Shown piece after piece: positions 1 through 64,000 of a stretch of 64,000 nt of DNA. The notes below the pieces were generated by a model. It saw only the letters and a program-made list of their open reading frames with translations. It ran no database searches and was not told where the DNA came from. This DNA is from Amoebophrya sp. A120 (taxonomy: Eukaryota > Protista > Dinoflagellata): contig CAJINV010000006.1 of NCBI GenBank assembly GCA_905178155.1, forward strand, positions 3,408,437-3,472,436, written 5' to 3'. The translations under genes and the position numbers were made by a program. Numbering within the stretch: position 1 is the stretch's first letter; every line of letters begins with the position of its first letter.

Positions 1-3000
1 CTCTTTGCTGCTCATGCAATACAGATTTTTTTAGAGTCCGAAATCAGCATGACAAGTTGAATTCTTCCAGACCCAGACATTTTTACAGTTGATACGTCGC
101 GATGCTCCGGGAGTTCAACAGCCCCAAATTCGCCCACACGATTGCGTACGCATTGCAAAAGTATCGTACTAGTTCTAGTAGTGATTGCATAACAAATTTG
201 CTTAGCATTTTTACGAACAAAACTTGTAATGCTGTTTTACCTTAGGAACGAGATTTGTCATGCATAACAGCAATTACAACTACGAGTGCGATACTTTTGC
301 AATGCATATCACCCTGCTCCAAACCGTGACACCAACTTTGAACCTCGCCCCGATGTTCTGCATCTTGTTTCTCGGTGCCAGGATGCGGGCCTTGCAAATG
401 GACCCCATTGACGGGCACGTGCAAAACTGGTATCGACTGCAAATATGTCTGGGTCTGGAACAAGGATGCAACTTGTGATGCGCATTTTGGATTAGACAAA
501 AATAATCAGTCATGCAGGGACAGCAAAAGTAGCTTACAACTCATCATCAAACTCTGGAATTTCTCATGCGATCTAGGCACTGGGAAACCTCAATCACCAA
601 ACCTGTGATGCTATTGCTGGCATGCCAGAGCTTCTGGGTCATGCAAAATCAGTATGACAAAGTCCGCAGTCATCCAGACTCAGACATATTTGCAATGCAG
701 AACTGGGCGAAGGTCGCGATGATCTTGACCACAACCGGTATGGAAGTGCAAATACGTCTGGGTCTGGAAACTTGTCATGATGAATTGGCGAGACTGAAAT
801 ACATTCCAATGCAGCCAAGCATGAGAAGTTTGCAGAGCCCGTCCTCTTGCGCAGTCCGCATGAGAAACAGGGCTTTTGTATTACAAAAAGGGGGACTCTC
901 TTGCTAGTCATGCAATACAGGTTTTACAGGAGTGTAGGACTAGCATTACAAGTTCCATATTTCCGGACCCAGAGATTTGCAATCCATAACCGGTATGGAA
1001 GTGCAGATTCTGGCGATGTTCGTCTGCGGCCTGTGTCTGAACGGCGAGGTGAGGGCGGGGAACTGTGAAGGGGATGTGTATCCTCAGCAAAAACGTCCCC
1101 AGCACAAAGTTGTAATGCAAATGCGCAATGACAGGAACATTTGTAATGCGCATCTCCACGAGACGACGAGGCATTTTTCATCGTGATTTGACAATTTTGT
1201 AATGCTGTAAACAGAATGAGAAATTGGCTTTCTCGTGCGGCTTGCTTAGCTTTCTCGTGCGGCTTGCCTTGCTAAGCACCACTACACTACAGACGGAAAC
1301 TTATCATGCACAACTCCCAAAGCTTGGCGGTTTGTGTTGCAGATTTACCAACTTGGCTATGGGTTGGGGTCGTTTTTGCTCCGGATAATGTGAGGTTTAA
1401 AGTCAGCAACCCCTGGGTCATGGTGGTGATGCAGGTAATGGTGATGTTGTCACGAATTCATCATGGTTTTTTGTCATGCGTGAAACTGCATGAGAAGGAC
1501 TTTCTGTCATGCATAAAACCACTTTACAAATATTTGTTCATTCTGCCATTCACAACATATTCAGATCATCCGTTGGTCCACGATCGTCTGCATCTATACC
1601 GGCGCATTGATGGTTTTAGTTTCCGTCTGCGTGCTCGAGCACCCGAAAGACCCGGCAAAGACGCCGCCAGTCAGCTCGGCAATGAAGTGTGTGATGATCT
1701 TGACGGTACTGTACCTCATTGTCTACTTCGGCCTGTTCCTGATGACCTCGCTCCGCACCTGCTTGGGCAGTCAGTTTGGTTCGTCCGTCCTCCGTGCGTT
1801 CGACACGGCTCGCGGCACGGTATTCTTCGCGCCGATGCTGTATCCTGCGTAAAAACGTTCCCACCCCAGAGTTGTCATGCAGAATTACAATCACTGAAAA
1901 ACTTGTAATGCGCATTTCCATGAGAGGCATTTTCAATCGTGTTATGCAATTTGTGATGCTGTCAAGAGAATACCAGGATGGATTTGTGATGCGGTTGTCC
2001 TTGCTAACCCGCACTACAGTACAGAGAAAAACTTGTCATGCGTGACTTCCAAAACTTCTGGATCTGTGTTGCAGAGTCCCCAACTTGACTCTGGGGTGGG
2101 GACGTTTTTACACAGGATATGCTCTCCGTCCTCTTCCTCGGGTGCCGACTCCGGGCGTTGCAGCTGACGAAGACCATGGGGTCGCCGCAGGGATATGCCC
2201 AGGACTGGATGTTTCTGGCCACCTGGGCCATCATGGGGCAAGTGCTACTCTGCTTCTTCCTGGGTCTCTTATGCATTGCAAAAGCATCGTACTCGTATAA
2301 AAATAAATGCATTACAAATTTCCTCAGCATGAGAAAGAAAATTTGTAAATGTAATGCGGATTTACCTTACGAAGAAGATTTGTCATGCATATTTGCAATT
2401 ACTACGAGTGCGATACTTTTGCAGTGCATATCGCTTCGCGCCGGGCGATTCCTCCGACCTGAAGCCGGACGAGGACGGCAACCTGCATATCACAGGAAAA
2501 AGGGTTAGCGTTAACGGAACTTGTTCCGATGAGAATTTGTGATGCAGTAATGCATCACAAAACGTCGTGTCCAAATTTGTCATGCATAGCATGCATGCTC
2601 GGCAAAATTTGTCATGCGCGACTGCAAACCGTGAAGAACCATCAAAACCGTTGATGTTATACCTTTTTTGTTTGATACTCCAGCTTCCGGAGTCTGCGGA
2701 CGGCGGGAAACCGGGCATCGCACGGTACTTAATGGAAGGCTTCCGCTACTTGTGCATGTTCAGTACGTACGGCGCGGCCATCGGAATTTGCTACGCGATC
2801 TATACTATCAAATGTAAAAATGTCTGGGTCTGGAAACTTGTGATGCTGTGTGGCGTATCATGAGGAGGCCACAATTGCTGGCTCAGCATGACAAGGTTCT
2901 GAGCTTCTAGGTGTTGCCTATTCATTCTGCATGACAAACTACGTCTGCTCTGCATGACAGAAAAGTGGGGCTCTTTGGTAATGTGCATGACAGATTTAAG

Positions 3001-5928
3001 AGTCATGCCAGACAAGCATGACAAACTTGCATTCTTCCAGAGGACCCAGACACTTTTACACTTGATCTACACCATGACCCCGACCAACGCAAACGGGTCC
3101 GGCTCGCTGTTCCCCTGGGGCCCGATATGACAGTGCACAACTCCCCCTCGTTCTCATTTCTCATGCAAAATCCCAAATCCAGTTGCTTCCTTGTATCACT
3201 ATTATGCATGACAAATTCCGCAAGTGGCCCAAACAGTACCACAGTGCGGGGCACACAAATTTGTCATGCATAGGCTCTACGTGTGCTGGTGTTTGTACTA
3301 TTGCTGTTCATGCTACACAAGTGAGGGGGAGAGGGGGGTGTGCACTCTCATACCCGATCCCCCAGCCCTTCGACCCGGCGGAAGCACTGCAGAACGCCGG
3401 AAAATATGCATTGCAAAAGTACCGTACTCGTATAAATGCATTACAAACAAGGTCCGAGCACGGGGACAGAGTCCCCGTGCGGCGACCTTCCGGCATTTGC
3501 CTGCCTGCGCGGTGGCACTGGGCAGGCAGGTCGCCTGCAGCTAGGTATCTCGGTGCGCCTTGCATTCACTGACCCGCGACGGGCCTGCGGACGCGGCACC
3601 CTTGCTTGCGCGCACTAGGTCCGTTCACCTGCCGCGCGCAAAGATAATATAAAAGAAAAGAAGAAACAAACTGGCGCCGGGTGCGGATCTGGAGCGAGCC
3701 GGCCCGCAAGTCATGACGCGGCGACAGAATCCCCACACTTCTGCCCTAGGGATTTTCTTCGCCCCGTGCTTTCTTGGCCGCGGGGCGTGGTGTCCGGAGA
3801 GTGTTCGTAGCTAGCCCCTAGGCCATGACGCGGGGACCGAGTCCCCGCGCTTGCCTAGGGCTTTCGCCCCGTGGCCGCACGGTGCCCGGGAAGCACTTGC
3901 AGCTGACCCCTAGGCCATGACGCGGGGACCGAGTCCCCGCGCTGGCCTAGGAAGGGCCTTCGCCCCGTGGCCGCGCGGTGTCCGGGAGACAGTTGCAGCT
4001 GGCCCCTAGGCCATGACGCGGGGACCGAGTCCCCGCGCTGGCCTAGGGCTTTCGCCTCGTGGCCACACGTTGTCCGGGAAGCGCTTGCAGCTGACCCCTA
4101 GGCCATGACGCGGGGACCGAGTCCCCGCGCTGGCCTAGGGCTTTCGCCCCGTGGCCACACGGTGTCCGGGAAGCACTTGCAGCTGACCCCTAGGCCAGGA
4201 CGTGGGGACCGAGCCCCCGCGCTGGCCTAGGGCTTTCGCCCCGTGGCCGCACGGTGTCCGGGAAGCAATTGCTGCTGGCCCCTAGGCCATGACGCGGGGA
4301 CCGAGTCCCCGCGCTGGCCTAGGGCTTTCGCCCCGTGGCCGCCCGCACGTTGTCCGGGAAGCACTTGCAGCTGACCCCTAGGCCATGACGCGGGGGCCGA
4401 GTCCCCGCGCTGGCCTAGGGCTTTCGCCCCTTGGCCGCACGGTGTCCGGGAACGAAGCGCTTGCTGCTGACCCCTAGGCCATGGCGCGGGGACCGAGTCC
4501 CCGCGCTGGCCTAGGGCTTTCGCCCCGTGGCCTCACGGTGTCCGGGAAGCACTTGCAGCTGGCCCCTAGGCCATGACGCGGGGACCGAGTCCCCGCGCTG
4601 GCCTAGGGCTTTCGCCCCGTGGCCGCACGGTGTCCGGGAAGCACTTGCAGCTGGCCCCTAGGCCATGACGCGGGGACCGAGTCCCCGCGCTGGCCTAGGG
4701 CTTTCGCCCCGTGGCCGCACGGTGTCCGGGAAGCACTTGCTGCTGGCCCCTAAGCCATGACGCGGGGACCGAGTCCCCGCGCTGGCCTAGGGCTTTCGCC
4801 CCGTGGCCGCACGGTGTCCGGGAAGGAAGCACTTGCAGCTGTCCCCTAGGCCATGACGCGGGGACCGAGTCCCCGCGCTGGCCTAGGGTTTTCGCCCCGT
4901 GGCCGCACGGTGTCCGGGAGCGCTTGCTGCTCGTTGGCCCCTAGGCCATGGCGCGGGGACCGAGTCCCCGCGCTGGCCTAGGGCATTCGCCCCGTGGCCG
5001 CCCGCACGGTGTCCGGGAAGCACTCGCAGCTGGCCCCTAGGCCATGACGCGGGGAAAGGGCCCCCGCGCTGGCCTAGGGCTTTCGCCCCGTGGCTGGCCG
5101 CACGGTGTCCGGGAAGCACTTGGTTGCAGCTGGCCCCTAGGCCATGACGCTCGCGGGGACCGAGTCCCCGCGCTGGCCTAGGACTTTCGCCCCGTGGCCG
5201 CACGGTGTCCGGGAAGCGCTTGCAGCTGACCCCTAGGCCATGACGCGGGGACCGAGTCCCCGCGCTGGCCTAGGGCTTTCGCCCCGTGGCCGCACGGTGT
5301 CCGGGAAGCACTTGCAGCTGACCCCTAGGCCATGACGCGGGGACCGAGTCCCCGCGCTGGCCTAGGGCTTTCGCCCCGTGGCCGCACGGTCCGTCTCGCG
5401 ACGCGTGACAGACTGGACCTCGGGGCCAAACCTCGCGTGACAAAGTCCGAAAGTTTGGCCGGGGTGTGTCCGAAAGTCTGTCTGGGGTGTGTCCGAAAGT
5501 CTGCCCGGGGTGTGTCCGGGGTGTGTCTGGGGTATGTTCGGACTTTTTGCCTGGGGTGTGTTCGGGGGTATGTCTGGGGTGTGTCTGGGGTGTGTCTGGG
5601 GTATGTTTATACCCCACCTTCTGCTTTTTCGCCAAAAATTTGTATTCAGGTCGTGACTGACTGCCATTTGCATACCCCTGACACACCCCCGAACATACCC
5701 CCGAGCATACCCCTCGCATGCATTTTTGACCAGCTGCTGCAGTTTAGATAGTAATTTCCCCAGCATGAGAAATGAAATTTGTAATGTGGATTTACCTTAA
5801 GAACAAGACTTGTAATGCAAGTCTTGCACTTATACGAATACGATACTTTTGCACAGGATAGAAAACAGCTCACCGTGCCGCCCCCGGCCGCTGCGTCGGG
5901 AAGTGCGGCTGCGGCGGGGTTTTTCTGA
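1..5928 (+). CDS. Multi-pass membrane protein of unknown function, 5' end outside window; split by 11 TAT..ATA elements and one GT-AG intron (1435-1564)
   Basis: Joined exons read ...TLLQTVTPTLNLAPMFCILFLGARMRALQMDPIDGHVQNWAKVAMILTTTGMEVQILA...GTVFFAPMLSVLFLGCRLRALQLTKTMGSPQGYAQDWMFL...AGKQLTVPPPAAASGSAAAAGFF, TGA at 5926-5928. The APM..LFLG.R.RALQ motif is internally duplicated. Frame is kept at each junction when the element plus 5 bp is removed. Confidence 0.85.
1435..1564 (+). other. Canonical GT-AG intron
   Basis: CAG|GTAATG...TTCAG|ATC joins VVMQ to IIRWS in frame. Confidence 0.8.
3126..3352. mobile_element. Introner family E (TATGACAGTGCACAACTCCCCCTC, about 220 bp); 4 copies
   Basis: DR CCCGA. 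Others: 10042-10264, 32357-32573, 45073-45338. Confidence 0.9.
3700..5390. repeat. GC-rich tandem repeat, 92-bp unit, about 18 copies
   Basis: GGCCTAGGGCTTTCGCCCCGTGGCCGCACGGTGTCCGGGAAGCACTTGCAGCTGACCCCTAGGCCATGACGCGGGGACCGAGTCCCCGCGCT recurs, e.g. starting at 4132 and 4224. Confidence 0.95.
5460..5715. repeat. GGGGTGTGTC-type short repeats followed by an inverted set
   Basis: GGGGTGTGTC/GGGGTATGT units at 5461-5607; ACACACCCC/ACATACCCC units at 5671-5713. Confidence 0.8.
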
Positions 5929-6437
5929 AGAACAAAGTGCTGAAGTTGCGACTTTGCTTCGTCCCAGCTGGTATTCATCGTTGTAGCGAGTAACAAAAGA
6001 AAACGCAACATGAGCGCAACTCTCTAGGCTGCAAAAGCAATTGCTATTGCATTTGCTCGCACGGTGCTTTCCTCAAATAGTAAAATGGTTGCCCTTATAA
6101 GAAAGTAGCCTCAACATTTACGATTTTTTCCTTGTCTAGATGGGACGGACTGTGCCAGTGGCGGAAAGAGTTTCCACATGGACGAAAGCGCACGGCAAAC
6201 TTATCTTTTCCAATAACTTTTTGTCACCATCGGTGATACTTAAAAACTGGTACTATATGGCTTCTGACGGGATTCGTCGAAGTGACAAAAAAAACAATTT
6301 TTTTCCCCAGCAGCTCATGGTCATGAGCAGGCTCGAAAGATGAACCATAGCAAGAATATGAATAAGCAAAGCAGGTCTACAACTGCACGACCCCACTCGC
6401 AAGATTTGGGGCGAACAGAAGTGCCTGCAAGAACCTC

Positions 6438-6925
6438 TTACGCAGAATTCTTGTTGAGTCTCTCTCGGTACAACTCCGCTACTGGGAGCAGCAATGACTT
6501 CTTTTGTTCCTCTTGGGCGGAGGCGTGGTGGCTTTTTACCTCCGCCGGGGTTAGTTGACGATCAGTATCCAAGAAAAAAACACCATCACAATCACATGTA
6601 GGAGGTTTTGCATCAGAAATTTCTCTCGCATGCCAAATATTTCACTCGCACACCCTAAACCCTAAACACAAAGGGAAATCGCCAATAACTCTTGACTGTG
6701 ATGCATTTTTGCGCATGACAAAAATTTTTGTATTGCAAAAATGTGCAATTAGTGATTGTGATGGTGTTTTTTTCTTGAATAATCAGGAGATGAAAACTCT
6801 AGCCGCCGGCAGTGAAGATCGAAGTAGATCATGATCCACCGCGTGACCAGGTCATATGATGGCTCACAGGAGAAGATCACAAGCAGACGCCCGAAATTGA
6901 TGGAAATGAAAAACCAGGCACCCAT
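6438..6925 (-). CDS. Possible small protein split by the element at 6566-6781
   Basis: Removing 6566-6781 plus one ATCAG copy gives MGAWFFISINFGRLL...LEFSSPD-RQLTPAEVKSHHASAQEEQKKSLLLPVAELYRERLNKNSA-stop. No homology recognised. Confidence 0.3.
6566..6781. mobile_element. Singleton TAT..ATA element (other singletons: 19550-19763, 28496-28629)
   Basis: 30-bp TIR TATCCAAGAAAAAAACACCATCACAATCAC, DR ATCAG, internal TGTGATGC and GCATGACA. Confidence 0.88.
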
Positions 6926-7082: not shown

Positions 7083-10000
7083 ATGGCAACTGCGAGGACT
7101 ACAAGAACCTCGCAGAAAATTATGTCGTTCTTTAGTCAAGGTCAACGCGCTCGAAGCTTCTGTCTGCTTTTCGTCCTGCTGCAAGCGTGGTGGTGGTGGT
7201 TCCTCCTGCTTCCTTCAGTCCGCGCTGATGTGGAGGCTGTAGGAGCAACTGCTTCCAGCAGTTCAAGTTCTGTGGGACGAGGCACTGCTGTTGCGAATGA
7301 AGATGATGGTCCTGCATCCGCTGCTGCTTCTGGACCACCTGGCGTCGATGTTGAAACAAAGAGCGCTACAAGGAGGAGCGACGTCGATGATATCAAATCC
7401 AAACCGGAAGCACAAGCACAAACTGCAGACGTCGCAGGTGCCACCGAAAACCAAGACGACAACGACGACCTGGAAGGCCCTCTGCCCGACCGGCCGGAGC
7501 CCTGGAACGACCGGGAAACTTGGTACCAAAACGAAGATAAGCTCGATCTAGAAGAGGAACAGCAGGCGTTTAACGAGGACAACGCGATAAACGATATTGT
7601 GGACGACGAGGACGACGTGAGTGCTGCCAACTTGGACCACGACCAGCAGCAGTCACGACAACCAGAACGGGCGACACAACATACTCCTGCGGGCAAGAAG
7701 ATAGAAGATGAAGGGCAGGAGGCGCAAAAACATCAAATAGACGGCCAGTCTTCCCTGTTAGAGGTGCAGGAAAAAATAAACAAGCAGCGCTTAAGCAGGG
7801 CAGGTGAAGCAGACAATAGCGAGGTGGGGGCGGGTGACGATGGTACTAGCAGTACGAGGAAAAATATGAAACCCCGTCCGAAAAAAGGCCACCTGGACAA
7901 GATCTTCAGTGACACGATTGACGAGATTTCTGAGCAACTGCCAAAAGACGAGTTTGAACTGGAGAAGCGAGAAAGCGCGCTCATGGATTATCAAATGCAA
8001 AAGTGTCTGGGTCTGGAAGATTGCGAGATTTGTCATGCTTGTGTGGCATGGCCAAAAAGTTTGTGATGCCTGTCCAAGAAGAGACCCTTTTGCCTGTCAT
8101 GCCAAAGCGCAGTTTGTCATGCGAAAAACGCAACACAGATATTTCTCATGCTTGGCTGTGCATTACAGAGCATCTACTATTCCCAACGCAGCATTACAAG
8201 TTTCCAGACCCAGACATATTTGCATTTGATATGGATCTGGTCAGCCTGAAATCCGATCTGGATCGCGACGTGGTGAAGAAAACCTCTATGCATTGCGAAA
8301 GTGTCGCACTCGTATAATGAATGCATTACAAATTTCTTCAGCATGAGAAATAAAATTTGTAATGTGGATTTACCTTATGAGCAAGATTTGTAATGCGTGT
8401 TTGCGATTTTTACTACGAGTGCGATGCTTTTGCATAGGATAACCTCGCTCGTCGAGCAAGACGCACAAAACCTCGACAACGACCTGCATAATCTGAAGGA
8501 AAAACAGGAAAAGGAACTGGTTTTGTCGCTACTCTATCCTGTGAAAAATGAGTATCGTGCGCCTACTAATCGCAATCTTGAATGACAGAAACAGATCTAG
8601 ACCCTTACCTCAATCAACAAAAGCATGACAAATTCCCGTTCTGTTTTTGAAAAAGTTGGCTGTCATGCAATTTGTACCACACGCGATGCTTTTGCATTGC
8701 ATAAACCCCACGGTGGAATGGACAGCGGACCGGTGGGTCGCAACAGCGGAAGTGGGACGGGTGAAACAGGCAGTGCTGGCGGTGGAACAGGCAGTGGCAG
8801 TGGCAGTGGATCAGCCTATCCCGTGCAAAAGTATCGCACTCGTACTAGTTGCTTTTTTGCATGACGTATCTTCTTCCTTAGGCTTAGCTAAACCCAATAA
8901 TTCAGCTCTAAATATTTCATTTATCACGCTGTCTGTGCAAATAATTTCTGTATGCAACTACTACCGTACCACCGCGATACAATACTTTTGCAATGCATAC
9001 AGGCAGTGGATCAACATTTGTGCAGCTAACAAAGGAAGACATCGAGAACTGGAGGCACCGGTATGGGCACTTCGTGTACCGCACCCTTTCCGCTGCCGAT
9101 CAAGCCAACGCACCGCAGAACGACTTGGAGCAGCGTGTCTTTCGTCTCTGCGAGCACATGGAGATTCGACCGCAGGAGTTTGATAAGCAGAAAACAGCCA
9201 ACTTCTACGCAAAAACGGTAGCGCCAGCTGGGAGTGGGAGACAGAACCAGCAGAAATCATCGTCCTACATTCAAGAAAAAGAAAAAGCCGGGCAAATGGG
9301 AGCGAACGCCTTCGGCGAGGATGAGGAGGAGAAAAAGCTGAATAGCTCTCCCCTTGTCGACATTTGGTGCAACTTCAAGGACGCTGAGTTGTTGGACGCG
9401 GATCGGTATCCTGTGCAAAAGTATTGTACTCGTAGTAATTGCTGTCATGCATTACAAATTTTTTTTTCTCATGCTGAGGAAAAATGCACTTTTAGGAGTA
9501 CGAGGATACTTTTGCAATGCATAATCGGGCTGCTGATCCCGAAGCAAGGCGACCGGAAATTGTCCCCATTCCCGCCGTATCAACTGCAAATATCGCTGGA
9601 TGTCTGGAAAAGTGTAAACTTGTCATGGAGGTTTTCCATGACCCATGAGGTCTGGAATGCGGGGCCTAGCATGACAGACTCTGTGAGGTCTTTGCCATGC
9701 CTATCCTGCATGAGAAACTCCCTCCCAACTCGGTCGACAGTGGACAGCTTTTGGCATTCATGCAACACAGATTTTTGCGTGATTCGGATTTAGCATGGCA
9801 AGTTGGCACTCTTCCAGACCTCCCAAACATATTTGCAACGTATACGCCGCGAGCCTGGACGGAACGCGTCTGCTGCATCCCCAGGACGCACTGAAAGACG
9901 TGAAAGAGCTCCGGTGGGACGGGAAGAAGCGCCTGTACACCATGGTTTCCAAACACGGGAAGCCAATCGCGAAGTTTGAGAAGGTGCACATCCCCTACGG

Positions 10001-13000
10001 TCTGTGGAAGATGGATTTTTCGCAACTCGCGCCCATAGACCTACGACAGTGCACAACTCCCCCTCCCCCTCATTTGTCATGCAAAATACCGAATCCACAT
10101 CTTGCCTTTAAGCACTCGGCGCTTCACAAGTTTTGGACGCCCAAACAGGACTACATTCCATGTGCGGATTTGTCATGCAAAAGCAACATTTACATTTGTG
10201 GCATTGCTTCTGTTACTGCTCATGCTATACAAATGAGGGGGAGGGGGCGTTGTGCACTCTCATAAGACCAGATCAGTAACTACATCGAGAACCGCGGCTA
10301 CGATCTGCGGATGCTCATGCCCGCCGTGTATGAAAAAACGGGACGCACGGACAGCACGGTGTACCAGTACATGGTGACAGAAGCACGAGAGGCCGAAGAC
10401 GACATGAATAATCCTTACCCAAACATGGTAACTGCGCTAGCCAAACTGCAAAAAGAGTGCGAGTACGTCCTCATCCGACCTATCGAATGCAAAAATATAG
10501 CGCTGTACTAGTATGAATTGCATCACAAATTAGCTCAGCATTACAAATGAAACTTGCAATGCTGTTTTACCCTATAGGAAAGAGATTTGTCACGCATAAC
10601 AGCAATTACTACGAGTGCGATACTTTTGCAGTTCATACGCCCTATGCAACAGCAACACGCGGACCTCGAAACCGCATCCGAGGAAGAAGAAAAAAGCGTA
10701 CCTATCTACGCCGGTATATCCTATGTAAAAACGTACCCACCCCAGAGTTGTCATGCAGATTTGCCATGACAGGAACATTTGTGATGCGCAACCCCATAAC
10801 AGGCATTTTCAATCGTGTTTGGGAACTTGTAATGCTGTAAACAGGATCAGAAGGTCGATGTGTGATGCGGCTTTCCTTGCTAACTTGCACTACCTTACGG
10901 ACTGAAACTTGTCATGCGTGACTCCTAAAACTCCTAGGTTTGTGTTGCAAAATCCCCATCCTGACTCTGGTGTGGGTACATTTTTACTCAGGATACGGTA
11001 GTACCAGCGGCCCTCCCGCAAGTGGAAGTAGTCGCGCTGTCGGGAATGCGGCCCTGGACGCTGCGTTCAGCCAGGACGTGGCTTACTGTCTCCAGATATC
11101 GATTGCAAATATCCCTGAATGTCTGGAAGGATGCGAACTTGTAGAAATGCGTGTTCCGAATCAACATGCGACTGTCGCGCAGGACCTGCAAAAGTTGCCC
11201 AGTTCTGGTCATGATGAGAAGCCATTTTTCATTGCAGAATAATACACATCGCCTAGTGCAAGTAGGGGCTGCAGAACCTGTGAAGATCATGCTAGGCCCT
11301 GCATATTCCAGACTTGGCAGAGCTAGAGCTTGGAACAACTGCATGACAATAAATCGCGGAACCTTGTTCCAGACCCAGACACTTTTGCAGTTGATACCAG
11401 AGCGAATTATTTCGGAAGCGGACCAGAATTTTAAACTTCTCCCAGAACAAGCGCGCCGGGGTGGTGTTAGCAGACGTGTCAGTGGATGACATCGGGGCGG
11501 ACGCTGGGGAGGGAAAGACATTTAAATTTGATCCAAAACTTCCGATGGCATTTGTGTTGGCGTATGCATTGCAAAAGTCTCGTACTAGTATTACTCGCAT
11601 GACAAATTCATATCAAAAAGAGAACTGAAATTTGTAATGCGGATTGAGATAAGAAACCAGATTTGTCATGCATAACTGCGATTCCTACGAGTACGATACT
11701 TTTGCACAGGATATGGCGCCGCTACGAGCGATTCCGGACGGGTACGAGCCAACCTGGGTCAGTCGAGACTATCAAAAGTAAAAATGTCTGGGTCTGGAAG
11801 TAGAGCACAACTTTGTCATGCACATTTTCCATGATCCATGATATCTGTGATGTATGCCATAGCATCACAGACTTTTTGAGCGCTTACCTATGCGCATCCA
11901 GCACAACAAATGCCCTCTCCGCGTAGCCAAATTTGAGTCCTCTTGCTGGTCATGCAATACAGGTTTTCTGAGCATCCAACACATATATCGCAAAGTCATG
12001 CTTGCTGGTCATGCAATACAGGTGGACTGTACAGGCGCGACACATATATCGCAAAGTACAAGGAGGAAGAACGCGCAGCAGTCGTGAAGCAAATGAAACC
12101 GCTGCTGCAAGAACTAGAAGCGACAGCGAAGCGCGCCGACCTCCGAATTTTCGGCGGCGATATGAATGCCGAATTCTACGAGGGCGCCGACGGCGAATTT
12201 CTATTCGCTCGGGAGAAAGTAGCGCCAGTCATCTACGAGGAAGTTTTAGCGCCCCTCGCTCGCCTAATGTCCCTCTATACCAAGTACCGCTGCCCGGCAG
12301 GCCCGACCTGCTTTCGGACCACACCCAGACGGATTGACTTCGCTCTAGTAGGCGCCGAAGACGCAAACTCGCTCAAGGTGAGGCAGAAGCGGGCTAAGGT
12401 GCCGGCCAATTGGCAGTATGAGTTCGGCAAGAAGCAAACGCGCTGCCAGTGGCTGAAGGACGACGAGACCCCAGATGAAGCCGAGGCGGACCATCTAGCA
12501 CTCCATACAGTAATCCGGTGGAGGCCGACGAAGGACGAAACGGGGCAGGGAACAACCGGGGCAGATCGAAACAACATTGGAACAGCAGGCAAAAAGCCGA
12601 CAGCGTTTAACGCAACATACGCTGATAAAAAACCGGGCGGACCCGCGGCCACGGGCAGAGTCAAGGTCCTGAAGAGCAAGGCGGAATTCGAGAAGTGCGC
12701 CCCCTTCCCCGGCGCCATATCCTGGCCTAGGGGGGCAGCGAAGAAAGAACAACTGGCGCCGGTCCTCGAAGCCGCAGAAATGCCAAGCGCGTGCGAAGTA
12801 GGTCTCGACGGCATACAGAACTGGATCAGGGATCTTCTGAAAACGGAGTGCCCGCTGAAGGCAAAGAATTTAATGACCCAGCAGATGGAAGCATTCTACG
12901 GCCGGAAGGGGGGAAGGAAGGCGCACCAGAAAAAGACGCAGCAAAGCAATGAACCTGAGCAGACGGGCCCTGCCAGCACGACTGAAACAGCTGACGAGAA

Positions 13001-46000: not shown

Positions 46001-46179
46001 TCCACAGCTTGCGAAGCAGCTTTCTCAAGCTTTATCCTCACGGCCGCGCAAGTGGAAATTGTGGCCGTGTGGAGCAAGATTAGCGAGGACACCAGCACCA
46101 CCAGGGCGGGCCCCGACAAAAGAGTGCTGTTCCCCCAGATCATACCGCCGAGAGAAGAAGTAGATCGTAACACGGGCAT
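34089..46179 (-). CDS. Very large protein with N-terminal hydrophobic segment, degenerate class-3 lipase-like motif and WW-like domain; 12 elements
   Basis: LLLTGYGTGGAVALVV...CIAFSAPPV lies in the 42007-44741 exon. LPVPWEVV...KPFRYFYNPITGKSQRTLP forms only after removal of element 41793-42006. The junction across about 37320-39057 is uncertain, so this could be two genes. Confidence 0.65.
34878..35728. mobile_element. 851-bp minisatellite-bearing insertion nested in a family-B element
   Basis: Splits host TATAAA^TTGCAT with an AA duplication and ends ATAGT. Contains GAGAGGGTGGCGC repeats and inverted CCACCTCTC repeats. Confidence 0.8.
36192..36519. mobile_element. Introner family I (TATCAAAATGAAAAATCCCC..CCCCATAT, about 320 bp); 3 copies
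   Basis: DR TGTGA. Others: 19803-20118, 57238-57558. Confidence 0.88.
37401..38945. mobile_element. Non-autonomous DNA transposon with 83-bp TIRs and 8(-9)-bp target duplication
   Basis: TIRs 37401-37483 and 38863-38945 are nearly perfect. CTACTTTT(G) flanks both ends. Internal G-rich tandem repeats at 38305-38700. Confidence 0.9.
39324..39436. mobile_element. Introner family N (TATC....AAAAAA..ACCATCCCC, 113-128 bp); 2 copies
   Basis: Nearly whole-length hairpin. The other copy is 47989-48116. Confidence 0.8.
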
Positions 46180-46985
46180 AGTTCTTGTGTCCAAGGTTAA
46201 GATATCATGTGCATATGGACCACAAGCTCCACAAAACTGAAAGCAAAACAAAACAAAACCTCTATTAACGGCGATGCAGTTCTTACTTCAAGTCCAACTA
46301 AGTACTTGAGATCATATTCGACAACAACAACTACCTAGGTAATCGAGGGGCTGTAAAAATGATCGGTATATGCAAAATCAAAAAAACTTTTTGTCAGCAC
46401 ATCATGCAGCTTGAAGTTAACGAGAGAAGCCTGCTTCGCTTTCGTGGTCACAGATCAGATTCACAAAATGAGCGAGACAGTGAAAATATGAAAATAGTAG
46501 GCTCAAATTCGTAGTACTTACACATACCAACTACCCGGAAATCTGGTCTGGTAAATCGCAATCCATGAAAATAATCAGCAATGCTTGCATGCAAGCAAAA
46601 CAACAAGTCACACAGTTATTTAGGGATCCTCAAATCTGATGTGACGCACGCTGCTGCAACGGAAATTTCAACTTGAACAAAATAGCCTTCACATTGTACG
46701 AAACGTACTGTCGGAGGTGAGCGATAATCTTTGACACCGAAGCTAGTAGTACTTGCACTTGCTGACGTGATCACTTCAAAAGTTCAAGTGCTGCGGTTAG
46801 TGGAGCCGATGGAAATAAGCAATCAGCTTCCAGTCAGATTGTGAATGCGATTTCTGTTTCGTTTTTCGTGCCTATTCCTAGGTATAAAAATTTCGTAGGC
46901 GTTCTTTTAAAAAGCCTCCAAATTATAGGCACCTTAGAATAAACGTCGAGAAAACGCACGGACACGATCTGAGCAGCATCCTATT

Positions 46986-52900: not shown

Positions 52901-54411
52901 CGCAGATTCCAAACTCGCAATCGTGCTGTTCGAATGCATTGCAAAAGTATGATGTAGTAATTGCATCTATCGTTCGTTCGTTGTGGATCGGCTCTGCCGA
53001 CCGGGTAACCCATCGCCTCGCATACAAATGACCGACATAGGCGAACCCCGTTGCGGGACATACAAATTGGCCGTGCGGAAGGGCCCTAAGCGCTACATAC
53101 ATAGTTCACCCTAAGCGCCTACCACTTCGGTCGGGACTGAGTCTACCTGGTCCTGGGCATCTATGCATTACAAATTTTGCTTTTATGGTAAATCCGCATT
53201 AGCATTACAAATTTTCTTTGTCATGCTGAGCTAATTTGTAATGCAATTTTTACAAGTAGTACGATACTTTTGCAATTCATAGTTCGAATCTGACCGTCGG
53301 AGGGTGGACGACCCCGGCGCGGGATATGACACCCTCAGAATGGAAATCCTCAAAGTGGAAATAATTTGTGATGCATGTAATGCGACACCAAAAAGTCTGT
53401 ATTGCAGAGAACGAAATGGAGGCCGACTACTGTGCTTCTACGGGTTCAGAATTGGGATGCTGATTAGCATGACAGAAGGGCACCCCTTTGCCTACCTAGC
53501 ATGACAGACACGTTTTGAGTGCCCGGGAAATTTGTCATGCGCCGACTAGAAATGGTGCTCCAACTGGAGTCGTTTTTTTGCATTACAAATTTTTTTCACT
53601 TTGAGGATTTCCAACCTGAGGCTTTCATACGGGAAGCCCCAGAGGACCGGTTTGGAGTTGTTGGCCTCCATTATGTATCAAAAGTAAAAGGGTCTGGGTC
53701 TGGAAACTTGTGATGCTGCGTGGCGTCTCATGATGAGGCTACAGATGCTGGCTCAGCATGACAAGTTTCCGAGCTCCTAGGTGTTGCCTATTCTGCATGA
53801 CAAACTGCGCTTCAAAAACGGAGCTCTTGGGTAACGTGCATGACAGATTTAAGAGTCATGCCAGACAAGCATGACAAACATGAATTCTGCCAGACCCAGA
53901 CATTTTCACAGTTGATATTACCACTGTTTGTTCCTAGTTGTTCCCTGCTAATTTGATTAACCTCTCCGCCGGTTGAAGATGCATTCGAGGGGTCGTTGGA
54001 GGTGCCGCTCCCCCGCGCTGGTGTATGGAAGCGTCAGGATTGAAATCGTCAAAGTTGGAGTAATTTGCAATGCATAAAACGGATACCAGTTGGTACCTAG
54101 TTTTCAAGTGGCGCATGACAAATTTGGGTAGAACTACCGGGATCCAGTTTGTAATGCTGTTTGGGTAAGGAAGCCGCCTTCTATCATGCTACTTTAGCAC
54201 CTCTATTTCTACCCCTCAACAGGCTTACCATCTGTCTCCCTTGCCTACTCTGCAAGACCGGCTCTTTGTGGGTTGCATTTTATGCATCACAAACTATCTC
54301 ATTCTCAACTTTGTCGATTTCAAACCTGACGCTTCCATATGGTGCCGTTCCATCGTACGCGCTATGGTATTCGCGAGAGCGACGCCGCAGATTCTTGTGG
54401 GTGAGCATCAT
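46986..54411 (-). CDS. Acyltransferase family 3 (OafA-like) multi-pass membrane protein; 15 elements
   Basis: HLDSLDGCRFLLVLPIIIGHF, VGGFFLLSGYV, FFQRV..YYPLH, LLQAWFP....NPPTWFLSA, RFHPIWALLEI, GSLAFPMFMCHGP. Confidence 0.85.
47709..47927. mobile_element. Introner family K (TATC/G....GAAAAAAGTGTTACAG, about 220 bp); 3-4 copies
   Basis: DR ATCTC. Others: 27689-27914, 41793-42006, possibly 58247-58505 (DR AAAGA). Confidence 0.82.
48327..48494. mobile_element. Introner family D (TATCACAGGAAAAAGTGTT / TATCAAACAAAAAAGTGTT, 155-190 bp); 4 copies
   Basis: DR ATCGG. Others: 2488-2677, 34595-34751, 41570-41733. Confidence 0.88.
48803..50135 (+). mobile_element. 1.3-kb 5'-truncated retroelement fragment, possibly Penelope-like, nested in a family-A element
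   Basis: 9-bp duplication ATTACAAGT (48794-48802, 50136-50144). Starts mid-ORF: FFRFCDNKNDFYKGVKQVAKIFSEKKL..IAKRFAEKH..stop at 49006. Confidence 0.6.
50596..50830. mobile_element. Introner family M (TATGGCGTTCTCAACTGTTACA, about 240 bp); 5 copies
   Basis: DR CACGA. Others: 40209-40456, 44742-44983, 50277-50545, 50882-51117. Confidence 0.9.
51924..52000 (-). mobile_element. Shorter copy of the (ATG)n-tailed retro fragment, nested in a family-C element
   Basis: (CAT)n-GTAGTGGACACCC..CCCAGCGCCACAGGTCAAGGATCCCCTCCCCGGGGGGTGGGCG is shared with 30316-30386. Confidence 0.7.
52971..53156 (-). mobile_element. 186-bp retro-like insertion with (AACG)3 tail, nested in a family-B element
   Basis: 8-bp duplication GCATCTAT at 52963-52970 and 53157-53164. 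Confidence 0.7.
54024..54339. mobile_element. Introner family F (TATGGAAGCGTCAGGATTGAAATCGTCAAAGTTG, 305-350 bp); 6 copies
   Basis: DR TGGTG. Others: 18782-19107, 53325-53629, 56701-57050 (degenerate), 57611-57917, 61056-61365. Confidence 0.9.
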
Positions 54412-56141: not shown

Positions 56142-59100
56142 TCAGCTGTCTTTTTGTTTGTTTCTCCGTTTTGTTCCACAACATCGGGCAAAGCGCCGAC
56201 GTAGCCTTTCACCCAAGCCACGGTCCGCCTGGCGCGCGCGCGTTACCTTTTCCCACCCTTCAAAAGACCAGACTTCGTTTCCGCGTTCTACTGGCGCAAT
56301 TATCCTAGGGAAAATACTTAAACGGGGCCCACGCTGTCCCACAGTCAAGATGTTAATTTTGCATACACAAATCCAGAAGCTTCGGGAGTGGTCACGCATG
56401 ACAAGTCTCTAGCGCAACTAGCTGTCGTGGGGTGCAAATTAGCAAGGACAGCATCATGCGCATTACAAATCTTGCTGTAGATGCGAATCCACACGAAAAG
56501 TCTGAAGTGTACTACTTGTTAGAAGTGGGTGTGAGCCTCGTTTTATTTACTCAGGATACCAGAGCGTGTCTCTTCTTCATCTGCTACCCCTCCAAATTCC
56601 TCGTAGGAGCAATCGTACACGTCATAGTTCTTAACCTCCGAGGTAGGTCTAGTACTAGTACTTGGGGTGTGGATATTCAGCTCCGCAATAGGTGTAAGAA
56701 AATGGATGTGTCAGGATCGAAATCGTCAAAGCGGAAAAAATAGTTTGTCATCATAAGACCGAAGATACCAGTGGGAAAGAACCCACTTATGCTTATCAAG
56801 CAGCGCATGACAAATTTTCCGAGCACCGGAATCCAATTTGTAATGCTTTTTAGGCGCAGAGGACTGCTTTTCTTGTAATGCTACTTTAGCAGCTCTATTT
56901 CAATAAACCCCAAACAGCTCACAATTATCGGCCTCACCTGCCATCCCGGCAAGACAGGCACTTCAGCATCAACTTCATGCCTTGCATTTTAGTTTTATGA
57001 ACGGCAACTCATTATTCAACCCCTTCGATTTCAAGCCTGACGCTTCCATAAGGTTGAAGCGAAGAAGATAGCCGCTGCGCCGTTGCGTAGCGCAAATAGC
57101 TCACCCCACAAATTTCATTTACCCCGTCTCTTCCTCCAAGTTGGTGCGCTTTTCGGACAATTTCGGGAGATACGATTACCATTCGGGAAGCCCATGACTG
57201 GGTCTGATACCAAGGCCAGCGGTTCACGGGCTCTAACTATCACAAGGAAAAATCCCCCCTCCCCATATCGAAACGAAGTTTCTGATGCTGGATTTGCGTA
57301 CACAAATCAGGCCTGTCTTGCTGGAGAGGACTGCAGGCATATGCCAAGCCTGGGTCGAGAGGTTTTGACGTAGGGGACTAGCGTGACAGACGTCGGCGCT
57401 GTAAGCCCAGCAGCATCACAAACCGCCGGCATAATGCGGCGGATTCTCTGGCTTTGCCTTCTTGCAAGACAGACAGGATTTGTGACCTCAAATCTGCATC
57501 ACAAATTTTCAGACGCATGCGTTTTCGATATGGGGAGAGGGGATTTTTCCTCTCAATACTAACGGCGTGTGGCGAAGCGTGACGGCGACCTTGCGCAGCT
57601 CTGCATAATTTATGGGAGCGTCAGGTTTGAAATCGTCAAAGTTGAAATAATTTGCAATGCATAAAATGCATGACCCGAGGCACGTGTGTTGCAGAGAAGG
57701 CAAGTGAGGCCGATTGTAAGCCTGTTTGGGGTTACAGCTCGAGCTGCTAAAGTAGCATGAGAAAATCGCTCTTCTTTACCTAAACAGCATGACAAACTGG
57801 ATTTAGGGAGAGCCGAAATTTGTCATGCGCCACTTGGACACTGGGTTCCAACTGGCATCCATTTTATGCATGGCAAATTATTTCAACTTTGTCGATTTCA
57901 ACTCTGACACATCCATATAATTGCGCCCGTGGTTAATATCCGTGTTGAGGGCAAATTCGAATACAGCGGTGAGCTTCGGGCGGCGGCGGCGTTCCACCAC
58001 GCAGTGAGGATCTGGTGGAGCGTCCTCGTGTTCACTGTGCTCTCGGAGCTGGAGCTCGGTGGGTAAGTTCCTGCGCCAGTCAAAGGAATTCTCGATGCGG
58101 TAGTAGATGGCTTCCTGACGGCTCTCTAGACGAAGCCTCATGTGTCGGACAGGTGACGCTTCGTCCGGAGAGTCGTCAGAAACTACAGGAAGCCAGCTCC
58201 AGCCCACAGCGGGCTTCTTCAACTCTCCCAGTGCTAGCAACAAAGATATCCAAGAAAAAAACTTGTCCCTTAGTGTAGGTCTAGGTGTGCTGCTGGTGGT
58301 GTCTTTGATTTTTAGCTGCATGACAAAATTCTTCTGCATCACAGAGAAGTCCTTGTGTCATGCAGCACAGCTAGTACGTCAAAACACGTACGGAAGCAGA
58401 GCATTGATATGGCTGGTACGCGTGACAAGTGTGCCTGCGTTGCATGCTTTCCCTATTTATAGCACAGACAATACTTACACTGCTGCGCTGTTTTTTTCTT
58501 GCATAAAAGACATCGTGCGTTCGACGTCGGCGATCGGCGGAAAACCTTGGCGAGTTGTCTCCGCTGCGTCAGTATCAAATGTAAAAATGTCTGGGTCTGG
58601 AAGAATGCATGTTTGTCATGCTTGTCTGGCATGACTCTTAAATCTGTCATGCGCATTGCCCAAGAGACGTTTTTTTCTGTCATGCGGAGACGCAGTTTGT
58701 CATGCAGAATAGGCAACACCTACAAGCTCAGAAATTTGTCATGCTGAGCCAGCACTTGTGGCCTCCGTATGCTACGCCACTCAGCATCACAAGTTTCCAG
58801 ACCCAGACATTTTTCCATTTGATAGTCAGACTCGCGGCGCCCGCCGATCGGCGGAACCGTCAGCAGCGCCTCTCTCGGCGCCATCAAGTGGGACGGCGCT
58901 TGACCACCACGGCGAAGCCCACTGCTGGCGCTACCGCCCTCCTCCCTCCGTACTTCATGTCGAGGCTGGTACGCAAGCAGGCTGCGTAGAAAGTTACGCG
59001 CAAAGACGGTAACCACGCGCGACCGCTGCAGCTGGGCCACCTGGTTTGGGCCCTCAATGCTGGCCCCCAATGCGGTCCGACCCCAACCGCGACCGGCAGT

Positions 59101-59673
59101 GGCTAGGCTTGTCTTTTCTTCCTTGGTTAACAGAGAGCGAGGCTCTCCGTCTAGGGACCCTCCACCTAGGTGCTCGGCAGCGAAAGGTTGCTGGACCGCA
59201 TTCATAGCTGATGAAGATCTTGCATCAACCGCCCCAGCGACCGGCTCTACTTCTCTGCCGCGGGAGAGAACAGTGCTAACAAGCGGGCGCTGGGCAAGGA
59301 GGTTCGCAAAATCTGCGGAATACGCGTGGTTCTTTTCTGTACGTCCTTCTTCGGGAGCAACAGCACCCCCGTCGATCCGGATGGGAGCGAAGTAGTCTTC
59401 CAAGTTGGCAACTGGAAGTACAGCCTCGTCTTTGCTGGTTGTACCACGAGTAGGCGACCGTCCGGCGCCACGACTCCGTCCCGACGAGGAAGGGCTTCTA
59501 CTTGGCCGCCCTCGGCCAGCACCAGAAGAGGACGACACCTGAAGTTCCAGGGCTTGGCACGTATCAACGACACTGCTCGACGTCATACTTTCCGATAAAA
59601 GAAGCAAGGCCGCCGCGGTGCTGCCGGCCAACTTCCACGACACAGACGAGGTTTTGGTAGTTTCCTTCATCAT
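56142..59673 (-). CDS. Putative secreted protein of unknown function, tandem paralog 1; 6 elements
   Basis: Signal-like VSWKLAGSTAAALLLLS..CQALE. Last exon PVERGNEVWSFEGWEKVTR..DS-stop. Homologous to 60521-62268 and 63451-64000. Confidence 0.7.
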
Positions 59674-60327
59674 TATTGTGCAACTTCTACTACTTATTTG
59701 CTAGAAGTGCTGTTTTACTTACAAATGGAAAGGAAATGTCTCCTCCTTTCTTGTCACGAATTTGCAGGTGAAGACAATGGCTTGAAAAACTTCGATATTA
59801 CGGGTGGAAAAATAGTGGGTGTCAAACGTTATAGAGCGATCTATAATCGCTATGGTCAGAGTAACAATTTTTTGTAAAGAATAACAATTCGTCTAACTAG
59901 GATCTTCTGCACAGAGGTTTTTTCGTAACTCAAAGTTGTACTAGGTGAAAGTACGTAGAATTACAAGCTGTTGAACTGTGGGGAAGACCAACATGATTTG
60001 GCAAGTGCATGTTGTCTGTCACAACAGAATATTAGAACGATCTCGGAGGCCAGGCGGGTGCGAGTACGACATACGCCGCGCCTGCGAAATTTTTCATCAA
60101 GTCAGCATCCTGAATTTTATCCACCGAATGTAGGTCTTGTACCGACCCCACCTTCGAGGGGGACTGCTTAGAATTGCGAGTTTTTCGTGACCAGCAGCGA
60201 GAGAGCACAAAAACAAGAAACGACCGCGGATTTTGTCATTTTGATCTTATTGGATGATCCTGTCTATAATTTTGGTCGTGATGTGGATCTGCCGACGCTT
60301 GGCACACGAATCCAAAGAACCGATATG

Positions 60328-63450: not shown

Positions 63451-64000
63451 CTATGCCGATGGCCTTTCAACCAAGCCCGCCTGGCGCGAGCGCGTTACCT
63501 TTTCCCGCCCTTCTGGCGTCCAGACAGCGTTTCCGCTCTCTACTGGTGCAATTATCCAAGGGAAAATAAACGGGGCCCACGCCGCCCACGCAGCCCCACA
63601 GTTAAGATGGGAATTTTGCAATACAAATCCACACACGACAAGTCCTAGTACGCATGACAAGTCTCTAGTAGTGCTACCTGTCGCGTGGTGCAGGTTAGCA
63701 AGGACAGCCAGCACATCTTCAACAACAAGAGCCATCTGCATACGATCCTGTTTATTTATAGTATACAGCACCACACATGCCGCAACACGACTAGGAATGT
63801 CCCTCATGGGGATCATGCGCATTACAAATCTTGCTGTAGATGCGGATCTTCATAGCAACTCTGGGGTGTAGTAGCGCGCCTCGTTTTTCCTCAGGATACC
63901 AAAAATTGTCATCTCTTCATCCGCCACCCCTCCGTGTTCCTCGTAGGAGCAGTCGCGCACTTCATAGTTTTGGTTCTCCGAGGTAGTTCTAGTACTACTT
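63451..64000 (-). CDS. 3' end of tandem paralog 3 (5' part outside window)
   Basis: 63340-64000 aligns by eye to 56095-56660, including the family-C element at the same site. Its stop codon is earlier than in paralog 1. Confidence 0.6.

What the first reader, a model, noticed from the sequence alone, without database searches (positions are those of the whole stretch)
1..64000. Genes densely split by TAT..ATA hairpin elements with 5-bp direct repeats and no GT-AG: a non-canonical removal system
Seen: about 86 elements from at least 12 TIR families share one grammar (5-bp DR | TAT[C/G]...ATA | 5-bp DR). Deleting the element plus one DR restored the frame wherever I translated, rebuilding intact PSMD9, a full calpain Cys/His/Asn triad and acyltransferase-3 motifs. 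Established: Amoebophrya genomes are known to carry abundant non-canonical IR/DR introners whose excision mechanism is unresolved, so the class itself is not new. Inference: removal is precise and guided by structure or DR. It occurs either on RNA (non-spliceosomal or modified spliceosome) or on DNA, as for TA-bounded ciliate IESs.
Basis: partly seen in the sequence, partly recalled or inferred. Interest (0 to 1): 0.9.

Follow-up and report, generated by a model that had tools for sequence, protein, structure and literature searches.

The report
Ruler-cut hairpin introns in Amoebophrya
Genes of a marine parasitic dinoflagellate are split by dozens of hairpin-ended mobile introns of an already published kind, and their mismatched flanking repeats point to a likely fixed cutting rule (one base before TAT, four bases after ATA) that would narrow down how this still unexplained splicing works.

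Summary
Observation confirmed: 86 TIR elements (5-bp DR | TAT..ATA | DR) make up 31.5 kb of the window. Exons match annotated Amoebophrya sp. A120 proteins at 100%, so these are the published A120 introner elements (Farhat 2021). The class is already known.

In four annotated proteins, 53 of 53 element introns equal element + 5 nt, including 1.6- and 6.9-kb nested ones. Three contigs of a probable RNA run stop at element borders, while a DNA run keeps the elements.

New, not found in my searches: mismatched DRs allow only one register for all 53, N-TAT...ATA-NNNN. It follows transcription direction, works in both element orientations and does not need identical DRs. The +2 U is selectively protected (1 variant at the 5' end against 11 at the mirrored 3' position, n=373, p=0.006). 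There is no AG and no G preference at +1. All multi-copy families share an internal GCAT[GCT]ACA repeat. A candidate branch A at -7 failed replication.

Removal is on RNA (~0.93). A U1-less modified spliceosome using the stem as a ruler is likeliest (0.55); a Euglena-like non-spliceosomal route is the rival (0.33). DNA excision is unlikely. The scan noted similar introns earlier in other genomes.

The parts
93..5990 (+). Membrane-protein gene (partial, no annotated model fetched) with 10 elements: 147-308, 431-701, 739-988, 1079-1387, 1841-2119, 2270-2430, 2488-2677, 2806-3067, 3126-3352, 3405-5860; probably also one GT-AG intron near 1435-1564
   Evidence: the GT-AG intron is one of several frame-restoring options, not verified
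3405..5860 (+). Composite element (2456 nt, perfect DR) holding a GC-rich tandem array
6566..6781 (.). Isolated element between two genes, perfect DR
7083..21180 (+). Gene for P0014 (1066 aa), 19 element introns, all element+5
8535..8703 (+). Element with mismatched DR that requires k>=4 (k = upstream DR bases kept in the exon)
8817..8999 (+). Element with mismatched DR that requires k>=4
11770..18682 (+). 6913-nt composite element (perfect DR), removed as one intron in the P0014 model; holds a LINE-like ORF
11937..17090 (+). Nested 1718-aa ORF, endonuclease/reverse-transcriptase-like (lead only)
   Evidence: no Pfam or PDB hit; ESM feature hit 0.90 to RVT_1 / Exo_endo_phos clusters
23545..25343 (-). 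PSMD9/Nas2-like gene (P0007, 378 aa), 3 element introns
26416..32676 (-). Calpain gene (P0001, 593 aa): 16 element-type introns and 3 GT-AG introns
27961..28144 (-). Element with mismatched DR that requires k<=4 (Phe shared with the A25 orthologue)
28954..29530 (-). TAC..ATA core of a 582-nt intron with 0/5 DR identity; only k=4 fits. No family homology and no internal motif, so treated apart
30957..31108 (-). Element with two DR mismatches that requires 1<=k<=4 (Gly in both orthologues, Lys in P0003)
31535..31704 (-). Eroded family member ending ACA; requires k>=4
34092..37555 (-). 562-aa ORF restored across 4 elements (one is a 1012-nt composite, 34846-35857)
   Evidence: no annotated model fetched
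39056..46287 (-). 1825-aa ORF restored across 8 elements; probable-RNA contigs stop at the borders of elements 40209-40456 and 40900-41108
46989..54411 (-). Acyltransferase-3 gene (P0013, 745 aa), 15 element introns including the 1614-nt composite 48571-50184
   Evidence: RNA contig geometry at 47709-47927 and 47989-48116
57015..59700 (-). 509-aa ORF restored across 4 elements; paralogous copy at about 60239-62298

Best explanation
These elements are non-autonomous, MITE-like inserts with terminal inverted repeats and 5-bp direct repeats that sit in the DNA of Amoebophrya A120 genes and are missing from its transcript-based proteins, and they are likely cut out of the pre-mRNA by a modified, U1-less spliceosome at a fixed register: one base before TAT and four bases after ATA. 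Shown: element + 5 nt is removed; only the register N-TAT...ATA-NNNN fits all annotated junctions; both element orientations are removed; DR identity is not needed. Inferred: the DR is a target-site duplication left by a transposase, which may bind the shared internal GCAT[GCT]ACA repeats; the terminal stem brings the two ends together in place of U1 and U2AF; N-U-A-U acts as a donor with a free +1 and a required +2 U; the 3' site is measured from the stem or from a nearby branch rather than read as AG.
For: RNA level: X1 (flat depth of about 45) has contigs crossing exon-element borders with 0 differences. Three contigs of probable-RNA run X4 end at element borders, and the bin over element 47709-47927 holds only the depth of a 60-nt exon piece. 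53 of 53 annotated element introns = element + 5. Farhat 2021 report 66,565 RNA-seq-supported A120 introns and the same TAT + 7 nt + AAA repeat motif. Register: k=4 is compatible with 53 of 53, k=5 with 50, k=2 or 3 with 49, k=0 with 41. The chance under a uniformly variable k is 6e-4, or about 4e-3 without the doubtful 28954 intron (hand calculation). k>=4 is seen on both DNA strands and in both element orientations. All 9 commonest A120 non-canonical motifs in Table S4 have T at +2. +2 U: variants 1 at the 5' end against 11 at the mirrored 3' position in 373 elements, p=0.006; second assembly alone 1 against 8, p=0.039. All 3 GT-AG introns of the calpain gene also start GT-A-Y. A120 keeps 83 of 89 spliceosomal proteins and U2, U4, U5 and U6 but no detected U1. 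Precedent: Giardia 5' site VTATGTT with a fixed branch-to-3'-site distance. Stem: 68 of 76 elements fold with z < -2, and 71 of 76 have at least 8 end-to-end pairs.
Against: No AG (22 of 373 at k=4, about chance) and no preference for G at +1 (119 upstream against 120 downstream DR copies). No branch consensus was found: the invariant A at -7 seen in the window (0 of 83 variants) did not replicate (3 against 3 in 290). The stem would hide the donor bases that U6 must pair with (inference). The register rests on few informative junctions: 3 need k>=4, 2 need k<=4, plus 28954 and two RNA contig ends. It is read mostly through annotated proteins, not raw reads. X4 is only guessed to be RNA, its joints were not among the 15 of 50 shown, and X9 and X10 laid 0 reads. 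Table S4 placements may reflect aligner bias inside repeats. The p=0.006 is one of three positions tested (about 0.02 after correction). Strand calls in the second assembly come from codon usage, validated 58 of 58 on the window only. Euglena and diplonemids show stem-guided removal that is thought not to use the standard spliceosome.
Confidence: 0.55

Rival explanations
1. Same RNA-level, fixed-register removal, but by a dedicated non-spliceosomal stem-ruler system (endonuclease plus ligase, or a circle-forming pathway), as proposed for euglenid nonconventional introns.
For: Strong terminal stems; no AG, no +1 G and no branch motif; orientation independence; removal of 113-6913 nt elements alike. 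The Euglena code N3-CDG...CH'G-N5-6|R is a ruler from a stem, with circular products. U1 was not detected in A120.
Against: Protection of U at intron +2 specifically, at the transcript 5' end only, and the shared GT-A-Y / N-T-A-Y start with coexisting GT-AG introns fit spliceosomal donor chemistry. The outermost stem pair tolerates 3'-side changes (11 cases), so pairing there is not what is selected.
Confidence: 0.33
2. RNA-level removal with a flexible junction anywhere inside the DR, guided by the repeat itself.
For: 50 of 83 DRs are perfect. Farhat 2021 describe splice sites as variable relative to the hairpin.
Against: 20 of 53 annotated junctions have mismatched DRs, and one register fits all. 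Mismatches are spread over all five DR positions (35, 25, 25, 26, 25). A 0/5-identity case is removed at the same register, though it is not a proven family member.
Confidence: 0.07
3. Programmed DNA excision like ciliate IESs, giving element-free genes in the expressing stage.
For: Transposon anatomy (TIR, 5-bp DR, TA termini). Only one DNA run was laid, and 35 of its 50 joints were not shown.
Against: DNA contigs cross exon-element borders with 0 differences at exon depth. The retained DR bases follow transcription direction rather than DNA strand or element orientation. +2 U protection is polarised by transcription.
Confidence: 0.03
4. The junctions are reverse-transcriptase template-switch artefacts across hairpins, and the genes are pseudogenes or are read by ribosome hopping between repeated codons in the DR.
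For: Hairpin plus short direct repeat is the classic substrate for such artefacts (own knowledge), and any 5-nt repeat contains one full in-frame codon.
Against: The joined proteins are stop-free and collinear with A25 and a third species across the calpain junctions, with the catalytic motifs intact. The listed X4 exon contigs are the joined form. Mismatched DRs are joined at one register.
Confidence: 0.02

Closest known systems
Amoebophrya A120 introner elements (IEs) among non-canonical introns (Farhat et al. 2021, PMC7789003)
   Same: Same strain by 100% protein identity. TAT + 7 nt + AAA inverted repeat, 3-5 nt DR, about 240 nt mean length, many families, RNA-seq support.
   Different: The paper calls the splice position variable or unknown and sees no clear end signature. 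Here one register (-1/+4), +2 U protection, DR dispensability, orientation independence and a shared internal repeat are worked out. Its figures 3 and S19-S25 could not be seen and may show part of this.
Euglenid nonconventional introns (PMC12501133; review PMC11282704)
   Same: MITE-like origin, terminal stem, slidable DRs, cut sites at fixed spacers from the stem, coexistence with GT-AG introns.
   Different: Euglena spacers are 3 and 5-6 nt around CAG/CTG, with a purine starting the next exon and no donor base requirement. Here the spacers are 1 and 4 nt around TAT/ATA, there is no purine rule at the exon start, and +2 U is protected.
Giardia / Trichomonas spliceosomal introns (PMC6679479)
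   Same: 5' site with relaxed +1 (VTATGTT), fixed distance to the 3' site, base pairing inside long introns.
   Different: They keep AG and a strict fused branch sequence; neither is found here.
Fritillaria borealis non-canonical spliceosomal introns (PMC13326754)
   Same: Genome-wide transposon-derived non-GT/AG introns handled by an altered major spliceosome.
   Different: Fritillaria keeps U1 and uses duplicated U2AF. A120 has no detected U1, and the 3' dinucleotide is free.
Polarella / Symbiodinium introner-like elements (bioRxiv 10.1101/2020.10.14.339549)
   Same: Dinoflagellate TIR elements with TSDs, some classes spliced in both orientations.
   Different: Those recruit G[ACT]..AG sites from the TSD or element, which constrains the target. 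Here the DR composition is unconstrained.

Membership tests
Amoebophrya A120 introner elements | Occurs in Amoebophrya A120 genes | tested here: met
   three exons 100% identical to proteins named Amoebophrya sp. A120 by the source
Amoebophrya A120 introner elements | Terminal inverted repeat starting TAT, about 7 variable nt, then at least 3 A | tested here: met
   position tables; definition
Amoebophrya A120 introner elements | 3-5 nt direct repeat at the borders | tested here: met
   5-nt DR, 50 of 83 perfect
Amoebophrya A120 introner elements | Repeated in families | tested here: met
   11 multi-copy clusters among 77; 68 of 79 have a near full-length match in a second assembly
Amoebophrya A120 introner elements | Absent from transcripts, non-GT-AG | tested here: met
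   53 of 53 in annotated proteins; 3 probable-RNA contigs, indirect
U2-type spliceosomal intron | GT/GC 5' dinucleotide | tested here: not met
   +1 free (GT 118, AT 97, CT 83, TT 74, GC 1 of 373); only +2 U conserved
U2-type spliceosomal intron | AG 3' dinucleotide | tested here: not met
   22 of 373, about chance
U2-type spliceosomal intron | Branch-point adenosine consensus | tested here: inconclusive
   A at -7 invariant in the window but 3 exceptions in 290 of the second set
U2-type spliceosomal intron | Lariat product and snRNP dependence | not testable with these tools
   needs lariat sequencing or crosslinking
Euglenid-type nonconventional intron | N3-CDG...CH'G-N5-6|R code | tested here: not met
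   register is N1-TAT...ATA-N4 with no purine bias at the exon start (code)
Euglenid-type nonconventional intron | Terminal stem joining the intron ends | tested here: met
   predicted folds only
Euglenid-type nonconventional intron | Circular, non-lariat excision product | not testable with these tools
   no raw RNA reads laid
Ciliate-type IES (DNA elimination) | Element-free somatic DNA | tested here: inconclusive
   one DNA run keeps the elements at exon depth; 35 of 50 joints not shown; one sample only
Ciliate-type IES (DNA elimination) | Junction independent of transcription direction | tested here: not met
   register and +2 U protection follow transcription
MITE (non-autonomous TIR transposon) | TIR, TSD, short non-coding body, high copy number | tested here: met
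   no empty-site allele was seen, so TSD origin of the DR is inferred
MITE (non-autonomous TIR transposon) | Cognate autonomous transposase element | tested here: inconclusive
   none among the window ORFs scanned or as long TIR pairs in 434 kb of a second assembly; no whole genome held

The most novel reading that the evidence does not exclude
A120 runs a spliceosome that has given up U1, the +1 G and the 3' AG: it needs only a U at +2 and a transposon-supplied terminal stem, and it measures the 3' site 4 nt past the stem. Any TAT-ended transposon can then insert at any sequence, in either orientation, carry kilobases of nested DNA, and still be removed without a scar.
Probability: 0.45. Interest if true: 0.8.

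Novelty: already known. Interest (0 to 1): 0.5.

Why it matters
The elements and their RNA-level removal are published, but how they are spliced is an open question, and the published account leaves the borders undefined. A fixed -1/+4 register with a protected +2 U turns tens of thousands of ambiguous junctions into exact predictions. It says where a lariat or circle junction must fall, lets gene finders annotate this genome by rule, and separates a relaxed spliceosome from a Euglena-like system. If the spliceosome does it, this would show how far 3' site recognition can be handed over to RNA structure, and why a genome can tolerate a free-inserting transposon load in about half of its gene-region DNA.

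Tried and rejected
Branch adenosine at -7: suggested by the window (5' variants only at TIR position 3, 3' variants only at positions 1-2, Fisher p=0.008), but not replicated in 290 elements of a second assembly (3 against 3). Dropped.

Hidden GT/GC-AG by sliding inside the DR: 2 of 83 in the window, 20 of 373 overall. Drift toward G at +1 or AG at the 3' end among DR mismatches: none.

Internal motif as a strand-specific RNA signal: no orientation bias in transcript sense (100 against 111; 425 against 415).

Frame counting alone cannot tell k=2, 5 or 8 deletions apart, so annotated proteins were used instead.

No RNA holder on record was listed. Raw RNA runs X9 and X10 laid 0 reads, which is no test. 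No reads were laid on the acyltransferase gene's 5' two-thirds, the calpain, PSMD9 or P0014 genes.

Autonomous transposase: not found; TIR pattern absent from viral contigs. The nested 1718-aa ORF has no Pfam or PDB hit. No whole genome was held.

The 28954 intron was first taken as a family member; it has no homology and no motif, so results are given with and without it. The three GT-AG introns show only short motif-level similarity to elements, so their introner origin is unproven.

Literature searches for a stated A120 register, lariat or circle data found none.
Full report
Observation. A strict scan found 43 DR5-TAT..ATA-DR5 pairs with at least 13/20 end complementarity against 0 in each of 10 local shuffles; the bare DR grammar without the TIR is near chance (71 versus 52-64). 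Relaxed scans, self-BLAST and mapping of annotated proteins gave 86 top-level elements covering 31,527 of 64,000 bp, 113-6913 nt long. The first 77 form 11 multi-copy clusters and 7 singletons. 68 of 76 elements up to 360 nt fold with z < -2 (12 shuffles each), and 71 of 76 have at least 8 predicted end-to-end pairs. Exons between elements have a median of 88 nt in three genes.

Identity. Three exons used as queries are 100% identical to proteins that the source names Amoebophrya sp. A120: a calpain, a PSMD9/Nas2-like protein and an acyltransferase-3 protein. A fourth, unnamed protein (P0014) also maps exactly. Farhat et al. 2021 (PMC7789003; I read the abstract, passages, sections 10, 11, 12 and 16, and text parts of the supplement, but no figures) describe A120 introner elements whose inverted repeats start with TAT, have seven variable bases and then at least three A, with 3-5 nt direct repeats, in 29,850 copies. 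They report 66,565 RNA-seq-supported introns, 83 of 89 spliceosomal proteins and no detectable U1. The class is therefore already known. Gozashti et al. 2025 (PMC12130899; passages, and 2 of 118 matching rows of one supplementary table; two files not searched) list 58 A120 introner families.

RNA or DNA. On 40001-50050, run X1 has flat depth of about 45 on exons, and its eight longest contigs match with 0 differences, seven of them crossing exon-element borders. It may be the source of the assembly, and only 15 of its 50 joints were shown, none of them an element-free joint. Run X4, which the tool only guesses to be RNA, has three exon contigs that stop at element borders with unplaced letters beyond (40457, 41110, 47703). 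The bin over element 47709-47927 holds depth 0.93, which equals a 60-nt exon piece at that contig's depth of 5.22. This is indirect, because the X4 joints themselves were not displayed. X9 and X10 laid no reads, which is no test. In the four annotated proteins, all 53 element introns equal element + 5 nt, including composites of 506, 605, 1614 and 6913 nt. The calpain is collinear with its A25 orthologue and a third species across the junctions, and its Cys, His and Asn motifs are intact. The calpain gene also has three ordinary GT-AG introns.

The register. Let k be the number of upstream DR bases kept in the exon, read in transcript sense. Where the two DR copies differ (20 of 53), the protein limits k. 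Elements 8535, 8817 and 31535 need k>=4; 30957 and 27961 need k<=4; intron 28954 needs k=4 exactly. Only k=4 fits all 53 (k=5: 50; k=2 or 3: 49; k=1: 47; k=0: 41). If k varied uniformly, the chance is 6e-4. Intron 28954 has no family homology or internal motif; without it k=4 is still the only fit and the chance is about 4e-3, or about 0.02 after allowing for the choice among six registers (hand calculation). Two X4 contig ends also give k<=4 (41110; the 60-nt piece). The intron is therefore N-TAT...ATA-NNNN. The k>=4 cases lie on both DNA strands and in both element orientations, and families insert both ways (8/8 in one family; 36/18, 30/23, 15/18 and 3/2), so the register follows transcription. 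Table S4 of Farhat et al. lists nine commonest A120 non-canonical motifs, all with T at +2 and eight with A at -2, which is what k=4 gives if both strands are pooled; aligner bias inside repeats is possible. The paper's text calls the splice position variable or unknown.

Which bases matter. A degenerate TIR pattern brought 157 loci from one other assembly in the metagenome collection and none from viral contigs. I used 66 of them (59 merged stretches, 434,545 bp); the 86 short ones and 5 contained ones were left out. A finder symmetric for the two ends found 280-303 elements depending on thresholds, and 0 in shuffles of 25 stretches that held 138. Strand was called from exon codon usage (58 of 58 correct on the window, leaving one gene out; optimistic because neighbours are pooled), giving 290 elements. 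With the 83 window elements, variants of the first TIR base number 1 at the transcript 5' end (intron +2) against 11 at the mirrored 3' position (p=0.006, one of three positions tested; second set alone 1 against 8, p=0.039). The single 5' exception has conflicting local and neighbourhood strand scores. Positions 2 and 3 show no significant polarity (3 against 7; 8 against 3). The window's apparently invariant A at -7 did not replicate, so I make no branch-point claim. Intron +1 is free (GT 118, AT 97, CT 83, TT 74, GC 1), AG ends are at chance (22 of 373), and DR mismatches are spread over all five positions. The three GT-AG introns start GTAT, GTAT and GTAC, the same N-T-A-Y pattern.

Shared internal repeat. 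GCAT[GCT]ACA occurs 207 times in 75 simple window elements (72 carry it) against a mean of 4.8 and a maximum of 10 in 50 Markov simulations, across otherwise unrelated families. It has no orientation bias in transcript sense, and same-orientation neighbours peak at 31-33 bp (family copies are not independent, and the second-set finder required one copy). That fits a DNA-binding site such as a transposase subterminal repeat (inference). Two of the three GT-AG introns carry three copies each. I did not see this motif mentioned in the parts of the papers I read. No autonomous element was found.

Mechanism. Shown: presence in DNA, absence from annotated proteins, precise element + 5 removal, orientation independence, tolerance of DR mismatch and of kilobase nested inserts. 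Well supported but thin: the -1/+4 register and +2 U protection. Inferred: insertion by a TIR transposase that duplicates 5 bp, then removal from pre-mRNA by a spliceosome in which the terminal stem stands in for U1 and U2AF, the donor is N-U-A-U, and the 3' site is measured. That +2 U is the most fixed donor base is my own knowledge. Precedents: Giardia's VTATGTT donor with a fixed branch-to-3'-site distance (PMC6679479, passages) and Fritillaria's altered major spliceosome (PMC13326754, abstract and first part of the discussion). The main rival is a Euglena-like stem-ruler system (PMC12501133, passages and discussion; PMC12621601, passages; PMC11282704, passages), which fits the lack of AG, +1 G and branch motif. 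I put the spliceosome at 0.55, the Euglena-like route at 0.33, a flexible DR-guided junction at 0.07, DNA excision at 0.03, and artefact or bypass at 0.02.

Novelty. The elements are already known. Searches for a stated register, or for lariat or circle data in Amoebophrya, found nothing. The Polarella/Symbiodinium preprint does not mention Amoebophrya (passages), another Amoebophrya strain has canonical introns and U1 (PMC12005148, passages), and a review repeats the 2021 description (PMC11453091, passages). [quoted passage not shown] Earlier notes of this scan describe similar hairpin introns in other genomes, one with a position-set 3' site; none exists for this genome. I did not test them. 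Interest 0.5: a known class, with a new and directly testable rule for an open splicing question.

Noticed in passing
window 11937-17090 (+): Intact 1718-aa ORF nested inside an introner, likely a non-LTR retrotransposon (endonuclease/RT-like by ESM features at 0.90, a lead only; no Pfam or PDB hit). The host intron is still removed as one 6918-nt unit in the gene model.
   Followed up: partly
window 3405-5860: Element split by about 2.3 kb holding a GC-rich tandem array of roughly 80-bp units; perfect DR kept.
   Followed up: no
window 30297-30901 and 51714-52219: Two elements of different families share a nested insert with a short CAT-repeat end (97% over 70 nt); a 181-nt stretch matches an element interior in the second assembly at 97%. 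Probably a separate small mobile element that targets introners.
   Followed up: partly
window 55000-59700 versus 60521-64000, N gap 60328-60520: Tandem paralogous block: two related genes share an element at the same site (58573-58824 and 60565-60816, 93% over about 500 nt) but differ at other insertion sites; the gap may hide an assembly join.
   Followed up: partly
window 31370-31472 and 27433-27600 (-), about 1435-1564 (+): GT-AG introns that carry the introners' internal motif, all 8 copies in the same transcript-sense orientation; possibly old introners turned canonical.
   Followed up: partly
window 48803-50144: Insert nested in element 48571-50184, with a short open frame (66 aa, no Pfam hit) and AT-rich DNA; nature unknown.
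   Followed up: no
window 1-21180 (+) and 23545-62300 (-): Genes lie in two co-oriented blocks, as reported for Amoebophrya; the AT-rich region near 21500-23500 separates the convergent ends.
   Followed up: no
window 34846-35857 and 38104-38832: A 1012-nt composite element with GC-rich internal repeats, and a separate tandem repeat region between genes.
   Followed up: no
loci L001-L157: A second assembly in the metagenome collection carries the same element families (best identities 67-98%), so these introners occur in more than one assembly; no window exon appeared among the BLAST hits I saw.
   Followed up: partly
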